The notes beneath the pieces are model-generated. The model was not told the origin of the DNA. It made no database searches and saw only the letters and a program-made list of their open reading frames with translations. DNA of 64,000 nt from the human T2T-CHM13v2.0 reference genome, Homo sapiens, in assembly GCF_009914755.1 (NCBI RefSeq), contig NC_060925.1; one strand, 5' to 3'. Position numbers and translations under genes: made by a program. Positions 53,934-61,535 of the stretch are shown piece by piece. The number at the start of each line of letters is the position of its first letter. Position 1 is the stretch's first letter.

Positions 53934-54377
<444 letters not shown>

Positions 54378-55133
54378 TAATCTTTAAAGTGAAAGGTCTC
54401 CATTAGAGGTTTTTGTTTGTTTTTGTTTAAACTAGTATGTAAGTTCTGTCAAGGCAGGGATTTTTCTTGCCTGTCTTGTTCAACACTGAATCCCTAGTAT
54501 CTAGAAGAGTGGCCCCTGGCACATAGTAGATGCACAATAAATATTAGTTGAAGAGAAGTTGGAATGAATGAATCACTAGAGTGACATGATAAAATAAGAA
54601 GGCTAATCCCAAAGAGGCAAAGAGCATGGATTGAAAAGGTAAAGGCTGGCAGCAAGGAAACAAGTAATAGATGTTAGGGCACCTCCAGGCATGAAGCAAT
54701 GAGGGGCTGAACTGCGATAATGGCCACTGGACTGGAAAGAAAGGGACTGGTGGTGTGAGAGTCACTGGGAAAGAACTGATAGGCCTTGGTGACTGACCAA
54801 CTGGTGTAGGAGAAAAGGAGAGGAAATAATGAAAGATAACATCAAAGAAAGTTCCTCATTCTTCAAGACTTAACCTGTGTTCTCTTTCGTGAAGCCCTCC
54901 CAGAATTCTCAAGCCTGTGTTGTGTTCCCTTTCTGCTCAACACAGATCATCTGTATTACCCTGTTGTAGGATGTCATAATGTACTGTCTTCCATTATAAT
55001 TCGGACTTTGCATGTGTTTGTTTCCCCAGAGAGACTGCAAGCTTTTAAAGGTCAGGGATATCTCTAATTCCACAGTGCCTAGCCCTAATAGTGCCACAAA
55101 GTAGATGGTTAATACGTGCTTACTGATTTAGAA

Positions 55134-55348
55134 CAAGTTTATTCAATCAAGCCATCCTGGGCCGCGTCAGGATGGCTTTGAATGTGGCCCAATGCAAATT
55201 TGTAAACTTTCTTAAAACATTGAGATTCTTTTGCAGTTTTTTTTAAGCTCATTGTCTATTGTTAGTGTTAGTGTATTTTATGTGTAGTCCAAGATAATTC
55301 TTCTTCTTCCATTGTGGCCCAGGGAAGTCAAAAGATTGAACAGCCCTG
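55134..55348 (-). mobile_element. MER30 hAT MITE
   Basis: MER30 motifs (GGATGGCTTTGAATG, GTTAGTGTTAGTGTATTTTATGTG, GGCCCAGGGAAG); 8-bp TSD ATTTAGAA at 55126-55133 and 55349-55356. Confidence 0.85.
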
Positions 55349-56035
55349 ATTTAGAAGAAACCTGTATTTTTTTCATCATAAAGAGGCATTTCTGTTTGTT
55401 TTTTTTTTTAAATTATTGTTTTCATTTTCTTTCTTAGTTGGCCCTAGGGAATGAGGAAGAGACAGATTCTGGGACCAATATCCTCCTTACGGGAGAGTCA
55501 AATGCCAGCTATTATCATTGCCATCAGCAATAAATAATCTTATTCATGCATTCATTCACTTGTTCTTGTATTCAGTCATTCAACAATAGGGGAATAGTGT
55601 AGCATAGAGTTTAAGGAGTTAGCATGGGCTTTGGATCTTGCTCATAATCTTAGATATGTTACTGGCCATACTAGTTTGGAAAAGTTATTTAAGCTCTCTA
55701 AGCCTTAATTTCCTAATCTATAAAACCAAAATAATAATGCCTATCTAATAAGAACATTTACCAAGTGCTTACATGCACTGTCATTTAATCCCCATTTTAC
55801 AGATGAGGGATTGAGACATAGTAAGTCACTTGTCCAAGGATGCACAGGTAGAAAGTGTCAAACCAGTTCTAGGTCATAGGTGATTCGATTCCAGAGCACT
55901 TGTGCTTAGTGCCATGCCTGACAATCTCATGGGTGTGGCAGTGGCCAGCACAAAGCCATATGAGGGGATCCTATGTGGCACGTTTGGCATGTAGCACATG
56001 CTAAATATGTTAATAATTGTCAATAAGTATTTTTT

Positions 56036-56350
<315 letters not shown>

Positions 56351-56477
56351 AAATAATTTTTTTTAGCATTCAATGTCAGAGAAGATATAGGGCATGGCTT
56401 TGAGGATGTGAAGAGGAAAAGATACACAGACTCTGCTCTCAAGTTGCCACCAGTCTAGTAGTGCCACCAGACACTGG

Positions 56478-57235
56478 TGTAAACCAAAAATAAAAATCTA
56501 AGCCTCCCCAACTATCTGAATGGACCCGTCTTCTCAGCCAAGGGCATTCCAAAGTTAACCTGAAAAACTAGTTCAGGTCCTGATTAGAAGCAGGAGCTGG
56601 ACATACCTCATCATAACCCTCATCCCTTTTGGAATTACTGATGGAACAGACTCTTTAAGTCTGATAAGAAACATTTACAATCTATTGTTTCTGAAGCCTG
56701 CTACCTGGAGGCTTCATCTGTATGATAGAAGGTTGGTCTCACAATCCCTTATCTTGACTCAGATATTCCTTTCTATTGATTCTAATTCTATTGATTCCTG
56801 ACATAGCACTCAGGAGATCCTGAGAACATGTGCCCAAGGTGGTCAGGCCACAACTTGGTTTTACACATTTTAGGGAGACATAAGGCATCAATCAGTACAT
56901 GTAAGGATGTACATCGGTTTAGTAAAGAAAGGTGGGACAACTGGAAGGGGGTTGGGGGAGCTTCCAGGTCATAGGTAGATTCAAAGCTTTTCTGACTGGC
57001 AATTGGTTGAAAGAGTTAAGTTACTGTCTAAAGACTTGGAATCAGCTGGGTGCTTACATGTACTGATTGATGCCTTATGTCTCCCTAAAATGTGTAAAAC
57101 CAAGTTGTGGCCTGACCACTTTGGGCACATGTTCTCAGGATCTCCTGAGTGCTATGTCACAGGCCATTGGTCCCTCATATTTGACTCAGAATAAATCTCT
57201 TCAAATATTCTATAGTTTGTCTCTTTTCATTGACA
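56478..57235 (+). mobile_element. MER4-family solo LTR with internal inversion/duplication
   Basis: Starts TGTAAACCAAAAATAAAA and ends AATAAATCTCTTCAAATA...TTGACA; segment 56799-57044 is in reverse orientation. Confidence 0.8.
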
Positions 57236-57980
57236 CTTGTATGCCAAGAGGCAGACAATCATAAACTACCACTGCTAAAAGAAACCTTAGAAAGCATCCG
57301 ATCCAACTCCCTCATTTGACAGATGAGTAAACCGAGGCCCAATGGCGGGGGTGGGGGAGTGAATTACTTTAGGTTGAAATTTGGACAAAAATCTAGATCT
57401 ACACTGGAGTGCAGTGTCCTTGACCTAAGGAAAGTTCAAAAAGCGGCAGAGAGATGGTCCCTATCCGAGGCCTGCGTGCACTTACAAAGTAGCTTCCTGG
57501 GGAAGCAGAAGCGGTTTGGGGAGGGGGCGGGCCAGGGGAGTGGCTGACGGGGAGAGCTCAGCCTTTAGCCAGACCCTCCGGGATCCCCTGGGATCACTTG
57601 GCTCACTCGAGTACACAACCCTTTTGCATCTTGTGTACTTCTAAATTTCAAATGGTGACTTCCTCTCCCTTCCCTGTCTTTTAATAAGGGTGTGGGGTAG
57701 CGGGGAGATTCTATTCCTGTCTACTTCTCTAACTGTTGCAGGTTCTTAGCTGAAGGACCCAATCTCTCTGATCCTCAGGCTCCTTCAAAACAAAACAAAA
57801 CAAAACAAAACAAAACGAGAAACCAGAAAAGTAGGGGATGGACTAAGTTCCCTTTTAGCTCTAAAATTCCATGGGTCTTCGGAGGGGAAGACAATGCTTT
57901 CAGAGCACGTTTAGCCGGTGAACCTGAAAACGAGGATTTTTTTCATTTGCGAAGTGGAGGTACTCCTGCGCGCCCAGGAT

Positions 57981-57999
57981 GCAGCCACTAGAGGGCAGC
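57981..57999 (+). promoter_or_regulatory. CTCF core motif candidate
   Basis: GCAGCCACTAGAGGGCAGC closely fits the CTCF consensus CC(A/G)(C/G)(C/T)AG(A/G)(G/T)GGC(A/G)(C/G), in a locally CpG-richer non-repeat patch. Confidence 0.65.
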
Positions 58000-58297
58000 A
58001 AGTCTTCCAGCACCTGTGCAGGTGGCCGCCGCCGGGCCCCACAGGAAGACAAGCAAGTTGTCTCTTCAGACCTGCCTGGGTCTCTGTAGTTTTCATGTTG
58101 TAAATCCTAAACTCAGTTCTTTAGCAAAGAGCAGCCAGCCAAATTAGGATGAGATGAGGGAGCCATTTTGTAAATTAGGCCTAGCACCAGAAGGATAAAA
58201 AAAGAGGCCTAAAAAGATACTGGATTCTAGGAAAGCAAATATTTTATGAAAAATTGAAAATGTGTCCGTGTCCTAGTTTAGTCTGCCTTACAGCTCA

Positions 58298-59621
<1,324 letters not shown>

Positions 59622-61535
59622 TCAGTGAGGGTGGCAAGGAGGGCTGGGTGCTGGCCTGGCTCATCCTACCATGATGAGGTCAAGTGGCCCCTTCACCTCT
59701 CTGAGTCTCGGTTCCCTCCTCTGTCAAATGGCAGGTTCTTCAGAGCTCCAATCAGCAATAATGACATTTCAAATCAACGCAACTTCCCAAAAGATTCCAG
59801 ATGACCTGTCCAATGGCCTTTCCAAATGTAGAAGGCCTGGATCCCTTGAGAAGACAGTTCTCACTAGCAGATTATAATCTTGTAGAAGATCTAGAACACT
59901 CATGGAACAAAGACTTAAGGATATCATCTTCATCTAGAAAAATAGTGTTGCTTACTCAGCAGCAATAGGACTAGAACTTCAATTTGTTTTTGCCTTCCTT
60001 CTCCCTGGGCCACGGAGGGGTCATGGTCGGGATTAAGCTGCCTGTGGCTTTACTCGTTCAGTCTCATTTCTGGACCTCTGCTACCTTGCCAGTTGTTTCT
60101 GAGACACACCATGTCCTTCTTCACCTCTCTGCCTTTCCATGTGTGCTTCCTTCGGCCTGAAATTCTTTTCCCTGCCTTATCCTTCTGAGAAGCTCCTAGT
60201 CATCCTTCAAAACCCCACTCAAATGACATCTGTTTGGTGAAGTCTTCTCTGACTCCCCAGAGAATCCCCAGACAGAGTTAATCATCCCTTATCAGGGCTC
60301 CCACAGCAGCTGGCACAAAACTTATCACAATGTACACTACTTGTTTGTTTTCATGTCTGCCTCTCCCCCAGGCCTGAGAATTCCTAAGGGAAGGGGTTGA
60401 TTATTCATCTTCATGTCTGCAGCCCTGGCCCAGTGCCTGGCAGGTAGTAGGGACCCAGTCAGTGCTGGCAGAACTGAAGTAAGTTCTCCTTCCTGTAACC
60501 AGCAGAGTGTTTTTCCAGGTGGCTGACCAGGATCACTGAGCAAAAGACAATCACTCCATGAGGCAGCCCTGGGGCACTTGCCTGGCATCAGGAGCTCAAC
60601 GCAGAGAACTGAATGCTAATGTTTAATGTTTGTGCACTGGAGGGCACACATCATTCAAAATTTGATGGAGGCTGTTTAGAATCTATTTTAATCCCAGAAG
60701 ATGACATGTAAGGAGAAATTTTCTGATAGTGTGATTAAGCTCTGGGACATGAGTTAAAGGGGTGGTGGGTGTTGCAATGTTGAAGGTCTTTATAGTCTCT
60801 GATTTTTTCAGAAAAGACTGTGTGGAGTGAGTAGCTGAAATGTGAATAGATGACCTCTGATTTTAAGGTTATGTAATGGGATTGGATAGGTCTCTTGCTC
60901 GCTCTGGGCATTGGACATGGTGTGGGGCTTTGGTAGCTTCAGGTGGAATGACCTGGCCCTCCATGAATGAGTGTTGAGGTTGGACACACGGCTGCCACTT
61001 CTCTGTACTGCTCCCCACAGCTTAGCCTCATCTGCAAACTTCGGAGGGATCAGTCCATATGAGTACATATGTGTTGTCAGTAAATAGACTTTTCCAGAGC
61101 TGCCAGTATCAGCTGGTGCTCTGTGCTTGTGCTTCTCTTTGGCTCTCTCTGCCTCCTGGTCCCAAAGGCTCTTGGCGTGGATATGGGGATAGCCAGCTGT
61201 ATTGAAAAAGGATGACTACACAACAAAAGAAGAAAGGTGAGGGTCACCTTCAAGGGGAAAGGTAAGTGGGTGTCATGGTTGATTCCATTCCGTGCTGGGG
61301 ACTCCCTTGCAGGGCGTTCCTTGGGGGTGGAATTTTTTGACTTGTGCTTTAGTCAAAACAACCATGGGTCTGAGGAAAGAGGAGAGGATGGCACATGAGT
61401 AGGACAGAAGTGATCGCTGAGGCTGGGAAATGGCTGTCACTCACATATTAAAATAGCCCAAAAGCCCAACATTAGGGTTATTAGTGAAAATTTTTTCAAG
61501 TTTAGCACAATTTTTTTGCTCTATATCTTAAATAG

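What the first reader, a model, noticed from the sequence alone, without database searches (positions are those of the whole stretch)
56761..57159. 107-bp near-perfect inverted duplication inside a MER4-type LTR (A-C'-B'-C-D rearrangement)
Seen: 56799-56905 is the reverse complement of 57053-57159 at 106/107 positions. The single mismatch would be a G:U pair in a + strand RNA. The 147-bp spacer is mostly the LTR's own middle segment in reverse orientation. The left junction has a duplicated TTCTATTGATTC, with TGATTCC repeated at the inverted end, and the right junction has an 8-nt filler (GCTGGGTG). Inference: the arms are far more similar than an old LTR should be to itself, which implies a much younger replication template-switch (FoSTeS/MMBIR-like) event or ongoing gene conversion. 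It could form a cruciform or a long RNA hairpin (ADAR/Dicer substrate), and the arms could mediate recurrent flipping of the spacer, i.e. an inversion polymorphism.
Basis: partly seen in the sequence, partly recalled or inferred. Interest (0 to 1): 0.72.

Follow-up and report, generated by a model that had tools for sequence, protein, structure and literature searches.

The report
Inverted duplication inside an old retroviral LTR
An old solo retroviral LTR downstream of TUFT1 had its middle flipped and 107 bases copied in reverse by one much later DNA copying or repair accident, a known kind of mutation with no sign of function.

Summary
Arms 56799-56905 and 57053-57159 are reverse complements at 106 of 107 positions, with a 147-nt spacer.

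The host is a rearranged solo LTR, 56478-57235, with TG..CA ends. Other copies are about 600 nt, ordered A-B-C-D, with one C. The window reads A, rc(C), rc(B), an 8-nt filler, C, D. None of 58 other copies holds such an inverted repeat, so it is not a family feature.

Both arms share 8 family-minority bases and both lack the family TATAAA. The copy was therefore made from this locus after it had diverged.

The arms differ by 0.9%, against an LTR branch of 0.057-0.094. That puts the event in the last 5-8% of the LTR's life (95% limit 28-46%), unless gene conversion erased differences.

The structure fits template-switch order 3-1-4-2, or a staggered-break inversion, with extra junction insertions.

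The family is class I ERV: 4-nt target duplications, and related proviruses with a tRNA-Lys-like primer site. The name "MER4" could not be tested. No RNA family matches and no transcript is annotated. The finding is real but of a known kind.

The parts
56478..57235 (+). Rearranged solo LTR of a class I endogenous retrovirus, 758 nt, with TG..CA ends. Normal copies measure 591-642 nt.
   Evidence: Ends were placed by alignment to 29 and then 29 more genomic copies.
56474..56477 (.). The 4 nt before the LTR (CTGG). With CTTG at 57236-57239 this is a likely decayed 4-nt target-site duplication (3 of 4 bases equal).
   Evidence: In 5 other copies with both ends in the locus, 3 have 4 of 4 bases equal and 2 have 3 of 4.
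57236..57239 (.). The 4 nt after the LTR (CTTG), partner of 56474-56477.
56478..56798 (+). Segment A, the 5' part of the LTR in native orientation. It ends in TGATTCC.
   Evidence: Aligns at 81-87% to 29 copies on the same strand as segment D. Star-tree branch 0.084-0.094.
56771..56797 (+). Two copies of the 12-nt TTCTATTGATTC (56771-56782 and 56786-56797), 3 nt apart, at the left junction. Other copies have one.
   Evidence: family D6, 100% identical. All 7 family copies in alignment A1 have one copy.
56792..56798 (+). TGATTCC, the short outer repeat. It is kept at the end of A and present again, inverted, at 57038-57044.
56799..56905 (-). Left arm: the extra, reverse-complement copy of LTR segment C.
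   Evidence: It matches the same place in other copies as the right arm, on the opposite strand.
56906..57044 (-). LTR segment B, 139 nt, inverted in place. Its last 7 nt are GGAATCA.
   Evidence: The B+C piece has a star-tree branch of 0.067-0.079, like the rest of this LTR.
56906..56915 (.). The 10-nt palindrome GATGTACATC, abutting the inner end of the left arm. In normal order it is the last bases of B, just before the point where copying resumed.
   Evidence: Read from the sequence.
57045..57052 (+). The 8-nt filler GCTGGGTG at the right junction. It has no counterpart in other LTR copies.
57053..57159 (+). Right arm: LTR segment C in native orientation. It carries the one derived base (57120). 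The family's TATAAA site lies in this segment but is absent here.
57160..57235 (+). Segment D, the 3' end of the LTR, with AATAAA at 57190-57195.
56167..56179 (+). A stretch of the upstream Alu that equals 57040-57052 (5 nt of B' plus the filler) at 12 of 13 positions. It is a possible template of the filler and not part of the LTR.
   Evidence: (D4). The Alu identity comes from SRP-like Rfam hits at 56037-56320.

Best explanation
SHOWN.
- A class I endogenous-retrovirus solo LTR, normally ordered A-B-C-D and about 600 nt long, here reads A, rc(C), rc(B), an 8-nt filler, C, D.
- A 246-nt stretch (56799-57044) is a reverse-complement copy of this LTR's own B+C.
- That copy replaces B and is followed by the native C.
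- This gives a 107-nt inverted repeat, plus a 7-nt one (TGATTCC), around an inverted spacer.
- The copy was made from this locus after the LTR had already diverged from its relatives.

INFERRED.
- One complex mutational event made it, most likely template switching during replication or replicative repair.
- In that reading, the growing strand left its template after TGATTCC. It copied the opposite strand from the end of C back to the start of TGATTCC. It then returned to the start of C, next to a 10-nt palindrome.
- This is switch-point order 3-1-4-2 in the four-point model.
- There were extra short excursions: a 15-nt slip-back at the left junction, and an 8-nt filler at the right junction possibly copied from the Alu 0.9 kb upstream. 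The event is therefore FoSTeS/MMBIR-like rather than a clean two-switch event.
- Timing: about 5-8% of the LTR's age. That is a few million years against tens of millions.
- It is most likely a neutral scar. The hairpin and cruciform are potential only.
For: Anatomy:
- In every one of 29 other copies, the match to 56799-57044 lies on the strand opposite to the matches to A and C-D, and both arms hit the same single place.
- The junctions are shown in alignments A1 and A2.

Not a family trait:
- None of 58 loci has an inverted self-match of 40 nt or more at 90% or better.

Local origin:
- At 8 of the 106 positions where the arms agree, both carry a base held by under 50% of 46 family copies (1 at 10% or less, 3 at 10-25%, 4 at 25-50%).
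- Both arms lack the TATAAA that 27 of 46 copies have.
- The best other copy is only 90-91% identical to C-D, against 99% between the arms.

Youth:
- The arms show 1 difference in 107. An event as old as the LTR would give about 17.
- The 12-nt and 7-nt duplicates are also perfect.
- LTR branch 0.057-0.094; proviral LTR pairs 0.105-0.169.

Mechanism class:
- Passages of PMC5453318 define type 1-3-4-2 (inverted repeat plus inverted spacer, 23% of events) and type 3-1-4-2 (two inverted repeats plus inverted spacer, 1%).
- The filler plus 5 flanking nt match the Alu at 12 of 13. Counting the filler site itself, the window holds 4 such matches, against 0.16 expected from shuffles.
Against: - No outgroup or second human haplotype was available. 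The ancestral state is therefore inferred from paralogous copies, not observed.
- A clean four-point event does not explain the 8-nt filler or the 15-nt left-junction insertion, so at least two more steps are needed.
- I see only 0-2 nt of microhomology at the A/rc(C) junction.
- The same product arises from staggered breaks with fill-in and end joining (PMC1885836).
- The filler 8-mer occurs 8 more times in the 64-kb window, on both strands, since it is Alu-like. A copy within 1 kb is therefore not rare.
- The date assumes no gene conversion between the arms. Its 95% upper limit is 28-46% of the LTR branch.
- The copies used for the branch lengths were the best matches to the window, which biases those lengths downward.
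Confidence: 0.6

Rival explanations
1. Same product, different process. Two pairs of staggered breaks, 7 nt apart at the A/B border and 107 nt apart across C, were filled in. The B-C segment was then rejoined in reverse by end joining. The filler and the 15-nt left-junction insertion would be end-joining insertions.
For: The inverted segment is flanked on both sides by inverted duplications of sequence that is single-copy in other LTR copies: 7 nt and 107 nt. This is exactly what the staggered-break model predicts (PMC1885836, abstract and passages). Both junctions carry short insertions, one of which repeats the immediately adjacent 12 nt. From recall, with no paper seen, that resembles polymerase-theta end joining.
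Against: A 107-nt stagger needs long unwinding. The authors themselves call the length of DNA to be unwound a difficulty, and that model was drawn for large inversions. The return point sits beside a 10-nt palindrome, as expected for a replication stall. Nothing here discriminates firmly between the two processes.
Confidence: 0.25
2. The inverted duplication is old, perhaps nearly as old as the LTR. Its arms have been kept alike by repeated gene conversion between them.
For: Arm identity alone (106 of 107) cannot separate youth from homogenisation.
Against: The 12-nt tandem copy and the 7-nt outer repeat are too short and too separate to be carried along by arm conversion, yet both are perfect. 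The chance of that is 0.05 if the event were as old as the LTR and 0.22 at half its age, so this evidence is weak. From recall, arms of 107 nt are short for efficient conversion in mammals.
Confidence: 0.1
3. The left arm and spacer come from another copy of the LTR family that was inserted or converted into this one in reverse.
For: The family has thousands of candidate places. The first look found 5209 candidates, of which 40 were scored.
Against: The arms are 99% alike, while the best other copy is 90-91%. Both arms share 8 family-minority bases and the loss of TATAAA. The inverted B+C piece has the same branch length as the rest of this LTR.
Confidence: 0.01
4. Assembly artefact in T2T-CHM13.
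For: None from these tools. It was not testable because reads and other assemblies are off.
Against: By inference, the structure has a mismatch between the arms, an inverted spacer, a filler and intact unique flanks on both sides. That is unlike a fold-back read chimera. A 400-nt feature also lies well inside single long reads.
Confidence: 0.03

Closest known systems
Template-switch mutations of the four-point model, types 1-3-4-2 and 3-1-4-2 (Loytynoja & Goldman 2017, PMC5453318; passages read)
   Same: [quoted passage not shown] It creates an inverted repeat around an inverted spacer. With the 7-nt overlap there are two inverted repeats, which is order 3-1-4-2.
   Different: [quoted passage not shown] Two extra insertions (8 nt and 15 nt) are not explained by two switches. 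The event lies in a repeat, and that scan used only the unmasked 48.5% of the alignment. Walker et al. 2021 (PMC7954356) required an unmasked donor. Such an event would therefore have been skipped. Their event lists are in supplements that I could not see.
FoSTeS/MMBIR-type complex rearrangements (named in a passage of PMC5453318; details recalled)
   Same: Several successive template switches over short distances, templated fillers and little or no microhomology, giving an inversion plus a duplication.
   Different: Those are usually described at kilobase-to-megabase scale in disease loci. This one spans about 400 nt, lies in an intergenic LTR, and is present in the reference genome.
Staggered-break inversions flanked by inverted duplications (Ranz et al. 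2007, PMC1885836; abstract and passages)
   Same: An inverted segment with inverted duplications of formerly single-copy sequence at both ends.
   Different: Those are chromosome-scale inversions in Drosophila with gene-sized duplications. Here the inversion is 139 nt and the duplications are 7 and 107 nt.
Hairpins and new miRNA genes born by template switching (Monttinen et al. 2023, PMC10710096; passages)
   Same: A perfect stem created in one step from unstructured sequence, near a transposable-element promoter.
   Different: Their criterion was a stem of 30-55 bases. This stem is 107 bp with a 147-nt loop. No Rfam family matches in the LTR and no transcript is annotated over it.
MER4-group ERV1 LTRs (Repbase names; Kojima 2018, PMC5753468, passages)
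   Same: It is an ERV LTR: TG..CA ends, 4-nt target duplications, mostly solo, with some copies flanking retroviral interiors. Its age falls in the tens of millions of years. MER4A1, MER4D and MER4D1 are called primate-specific in PMC10637000.

Membership tests
LTR of a class I (ERV1-type) endogenous retrovirus | TG...CA termini and a unit length shared by many dispersed copies | tested here: met
   The window LTR starts with TG at 56478 and ends with CA at 57235. Five copies with both ends in the locus measure 591-642 nt. First-look candidate places numbered 5209 and 2535, with 40 and 39 scored.
LTR of a class I (ERV1-type) endogenous retrovirus | 4-nt target-site duplication. Group I ERVs are listed with a TSD of 4 and group II with 5-6 in Table 1 of PMC11905727. 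| tested here: met
   In the family, 3 of 5 copies have 4 of 4 bases equal and 2 of 5 have 3 of 4. The window copy itself has 3 of 4 (CTGG / CTTG), which alone would be inconclusive.
LTR of a class I (ERV1-type) endogenous retrovirus | The same LTR flanks retroviral interiors, with a polypurine tract before the 3' LTR and a tRNA primer-binding site after the 5' LTR | tested here: met
   L005 and L006 have a purine tract abutting the LTR start and share about 375 nt upstream of it. In 29 of 30 leader loci an LTR end (73-88% identical to window C-D) is followed by a shared leader. The primer site is best matched by tRNA-Lys in 21 of 29 loci ungapped and 26 of 29 gapped, out of 54 human tRNA representatives. 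The best case is 17 of 18 in L072. Three proviruses have both LTRs.
LTR of a class I (ERV1-type) endogenous retrovirus | The interior encodes gag/pro/pol of gamma- or epsilon-like type | tested here: inconclusive
   In the 3.5 kb after the 5' LTR leader of one related provirus (L145), 0 of the 10 sense-strand open pieces of 40 aa or more matched any Pfam family at E <= 0.01. I went no deeper because the envelope gene could not be excluded.
MER4 (Repbase/Dfam LTR names MER4A-E) | Sequence match to a MER4 reference in a repeat library | not testable with these tools
   No repeat library is on hand, and the RefSeq mask gives no family names. The paper that first printed MER4 (PMC330213) is not held.
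MER4 (Repbase/Dfam LTR names MER4A-E) | Belongs to ERV1, with an age compatible with a primate-specific family | tested here: inconclusive
   The class I features are met (rows above). The branch of 0.057-0.094 and LTR pairs of 0.105-0.169 give roughly 24-94 My, depending on the rate. Many other ERV1 LTR families would pass the same test.
Four-point template-switch mutation, type 3-1-4-2 | One fragment is a reverse-complement copy of nearby sequence, and the flanks are collinear with the ancestor | tested here: met
   56799-57044 equals rc of B+C, while A and C-D are collinear with 29 other copies. The ancestor is inferred from paralogues, not from an orthologue.
Four-point template-switch mutation, type 3-1-4-2 | Switch points in the order 3 < 1 < 4 < 2 | tested here: met
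   Point 3 (start of TGATTCC) lies 7 nt before point 1 (its end, 56798). Point 4 is the start of C and point 2 is the end of C.
Four-point template-switch mutation, type 3-1-4-2 | The two switches alone explain all differences from the ancestor | tested here: not met
   An 8-nt filler (57045-57052) and a 15-nt insertion repeating the adjacent 12 nt (56771-56797) remain unexplained.
Four-point template-switch mutation, type 3-1-4-2 | The ancestral state is seen in a sister lineage | not testable with these tools
Known structured RNA or miRNA family | Match to an Rfam covariance model | tested here: not met
   A cmscan of 56000-58000 at E <= 1 gave 7 matches. All lie in the Alu at 56000-56320 and none in the LTR.

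The most novel reading that the evidence does not exclude
The event is specific to the human or African-ape lineage, and possibly still polymorphic. It would be a template-switch mutation about ten times longer than those catalogued so far, hidden from genome-wide scans because it lies in masked repeat. Sitting 0.7 kb from annotated hESC enhancers, it would be transcribed as a 107-bp near-perfect double-stranded RNA (a substrate for editing or small-RNA production), or its spacer would flip between haplotypes.
Probability: 0.08. Interest if true: 0.55.

Novelty: new member of a known kind. Interest (0 to 1): 0.3.

Why it matters
This is a clean, well-resolved example of a complex inversion-plus-inverted-duplication inside a repeat, the part of the genome that published template-switch scans leave out.

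It shows that events with a 246-nt copied fragment occur, and that they can be dated against the host repeat's own decay.

If it proved lineage-specific or polymorphic, it would be a useful marker. It would also be a test case for whether long perfect inverted repeats persist in the human germ line.

As it stands there is no sign of function, and the mechanism class is known.

Tried and rejected
1. Is the repeat part of the family? Rejected. None of 58 loci has it. One locus, L039, has a direct, not inverted, doubling of C.

2. Is it a foreign LTR fragment? Rejected.

3. Is it a known RNA family? There are no Rfam matches in the LTR.

4. Naming the family from print. PMC330213 is not held. Passages of PMC5753468, PMC4724089, PMC11905727, PMC10637000 and PMC10069462 place MER4 in ERV1 and call some subfamilies primate-specific. 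They print nothing I could compare with the window. Vargiu's per-provirus primer-site table is a supplement I could not see.

5. Naming from a core gene. None of 10 open pieces matched Pfam.

6. Looking for 5' LTRs among 40 copies by shared downstream flank found only duplicated loci. They were found later through the leader of L047.

7. The LTR queries from L006 and L005 did not return their partner LTRs among the 40 scored places.

8. Primer-site typing is not clean. Ungapped, 5 of 29 loci are closest to Phe, 2 to Sec and 1 to Ile. The 5' LTRs typed are only 73-88% identical to the window's C-D, so they may be sister subfamilies.

9. The second note corrects this.

Full report
**Observation.**
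- The sequence and the repeat finder show one inverted pair: 56799-56905 and 57053-57159, 107 nt, 99% complementary, 147 nt apart.
- A script found a single mismatch. Position 56838 is G and 57120 is T on the + strand, so a + strand RNA would have a G:U pair.
- The 12-nt TTCTATTGATTC occurs twice, at 56771-56782 and 56786-56797.
- TGATTCC at 56792-56798 recurs inverted at 57038-57044. GCTGGGTG at 57045-57052 separates the inverted block from the right arm.
- Folding 56785-57175 gives -249.6 kcal/mol as RNA (shuffles -114.3 +/- 5.9, z -23, 0 of 100 as good). As DNA it gives -144.9 (z -25).

**What the host element is.**
- A search of the window's own genome with 56500-57260 gave 117 matches, from 5209 first-look candidates of which 40 were scored.
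- Alignment to the 29 saved copies places the ends at 56478 (TG) and 57235 (CA).
- The flanks read CTGG and CTTG.
- Five other copies with both ends in the locus measure 591-642 nt. Their flanking 4 nt are identical in 3 and match at 3 of 4 bases in 2.
- Table 1 of PMC11905727 lists 4-nt duplications for group I ERVs and 5-6 for group II.
- Two of the 29 copies (L005, L006) are 3' LTRs. A purine tract abuts the LTR start, and they share about 375 nt upstream.
- Using the leader after the 5' LTR of a chr12 provirus (L047), I found 101 candidate places, of which 40 were scored. In 29 of the 30 saved loci an LTR end, 73-88% identical to the window's C-D, is followed by the same leader.
- I compared the first 50 nt of that leader with the 3' ends of 54 human tRNA genes fetched by RefSeq coordinates. 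tRNA-Lys was best in 21 of 29 loci ungapped and 26 of 29 gapped. The best case was 17 of 18. Five loci were nearer Phe, two nearer Sec and one nearer Ile, so the typing is not clean.
- PMC4724089 warns that primer-site usage is unstable.
- One attempt at a core gene failed. In the 3.5 kb after that leader, 0 of 10 sense-strand open pieces of 40 aa or more matched Pfam. I went no further into the provirus.
- The element is therefore a solo LTR of a class I ERV with a Lys-like primer site in related proviruses.
- The name 'MER4' could not be tested. In print, MER4 LTRs belong to ERV1 with interior MER4I (PMC5753468), and some subfamilies are called primate-specific (PMC10637000). That fits, but it does not discriminate.

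**The rearrangement.**
- In all 29 copies, the stretch matching 56799-57044 follows segment A directly and lies on the opposite strand. Both arms hit the same single place.
- Normal copies therefore read A-B-C-D with one C. The window reads A, rc(C), rc(B), filler, C, D (alignments).
- None of 58 other loci has an inverted self-match of 40 nt or more at 90% or better.
- The copy came from this very locus. The arms agree at 106 positions; at 8 of these both carry a base held by fewer than half of 46 family copies.
- Both arms also lack the TATAAA that 27 of 46 copies have in C.
- The best other copy is 90-91% identical to C-D.
- At the one differing site, 85% of copies share the left-arm base and 11% the right-arm base. 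The native right arm has therefore changed since the event.

**Ages.**
- Star-tree branch lengths from pairwise K2P distances, with no consensus built, give the window LTR 0.057-0.094. These figures come from three pieces and two copy sets. The copy sets were the best matches to the window, so the lower values are biased down.
- 5'-3' LTR pairs of three related proviruses differ by 0.105-0.127, 0.157 and 0.169.
- The rates are recalled, not taken from a call. At 2.2e-9 per site per year these figures mean about 24-43 My. At 1.0e-9 they mean about 52-94 My.
- The arms differ by 0.0093, which is 0.0047 per lineage. That is 5-8% of the LTR branch, or 2-5 My at those two rates (9 My at 0.5e-9).
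- The Poisson 95% range is 0.025-5.6 differences. The upper limit is 28-46% of the LTR branch.
- An event as old as the LTR would predict about 17 differences between the arms.

**Mechanism.**
- In the four-point model (PMC5453318), a fragment copied in reverse complement between points 2 and 3 is set between collinear flanks.
- Here point 1 is the end of TGATTCC and point 2 is the end of C. Point 3 is the start of TGATTCC and point 4 is the start of C. The order is 3-1-4-2.
- That paper describes this order as giving two inverted repeats around an inverted spacer (1% of events). Without the 7-nt overlap it would be 1-3-4-2 (23% of events).
- The return point follows a 10-nt palindrome (56906-56915).
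- Two features fall outside a clean event: the 8-nt filler and the 15-nt left-junction insertion that repeats the adjacent 12 nt.
- The filler with its 5 preceding bases equals a stretch of the upstream Alu (56167-56179) at 12 of 13. Shuffles expect 0.16 such matches in the window, and 4 are found including the filler site itself.
- The 8-mer occurs 8 more times in the window because it is Alu-like, so this is only suggestive.
- A multi-switch, FoSTeS/MMBIR-like replication error is my preferred reading.
- A staggered-break inversion with fill-in and end joining gives the same product (PMC1885836). It cannot be excluded.

**Function.**
- No Rfam family matches in the LTR.
- RefSeq annotates no transcript across 54000-60000. 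The nearest elements are hESC H3K27ac enhancers at 57918-58919.
- TUFT1 ends 9.5 kb upstream, and SNX27 starts about 18 kb downstream.
- From recall, a 147-nt spacer disfavours cruciform extrusion, and 107-nt arms are short for recombination. I therefore rate a neutral scar as most likely.

**Known or new.**
- The kind is known. This instance is not in the main text of the papers I read.
- Both genome-wide scans excluded repeat-masked sequence. Their event lists are in supplements that I could not see.
- I searched no paper for this locus by coordinates.

**Verdict.** The finding is real, locus-specific and comparatively young. It is well explained and of modest interest.

Noticed in passing
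window 56033-56370: An Alu element on the + strand, seen as SRP-like Rfam hits and Alu-derived miRNA-family near-hits. It lies 108 nt upstream of the LTR. It carries the 13-nt stretch that resembles the right-junction filler.
   Followed up: partly
window 57440-57600 and 57918-58919: A G+C-rich stretch lies just 3' of the LTR. RefSeq 'H3K27ac hESC enhancer' elements start about 0.7 kb downstream, and a CRISPRi-targeted candidate enhancer lies at 59896-60646. No transcript is annotated.
   Followed up: no
L039 (chr13:40,499,202-40,500,386): Another copy of the LTR family has two C-D-like segments in direct orientation about 209 nt apart. This is a different, tandem rearrangement of the same LTR region.
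   Followed up: no
L029 / L043 (chr12 26.97 and 27.49 Mb); L014 / L015 (chr5); L052 / L053 (chr2): These LTR copies share flanking sequence at about 91%, 99.8% and 99.4% identity. They are segmental duplications of different ages that carried an LTR along. One twin of each pair was dropped from the distance counts.
   Followed up: partly
L061-L090, first 40 nt after the 5' LTR: The primer-binding region of related proviruses comes in at least two forms. One is an 18-nt tRNA-Lys(CTT)-like site. The other is longer by a few bases and scores nearer Lys(TTT) or Phe when ungapped.
   Followed up: partly
L146 (chr12:106,902,900-106,903,651): The 3' LTR of the chr12 provirus aligns to its 5' partner in two blocks separated by about 300 nt. 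This suggests a later insertion inside that LTR.
   Followed up: no
window 57300-57350: Directly after the LTR lies a stretch that, from recall only, looks like the core of an old MIR-type SINE. It was not tested.
   Followed up: no
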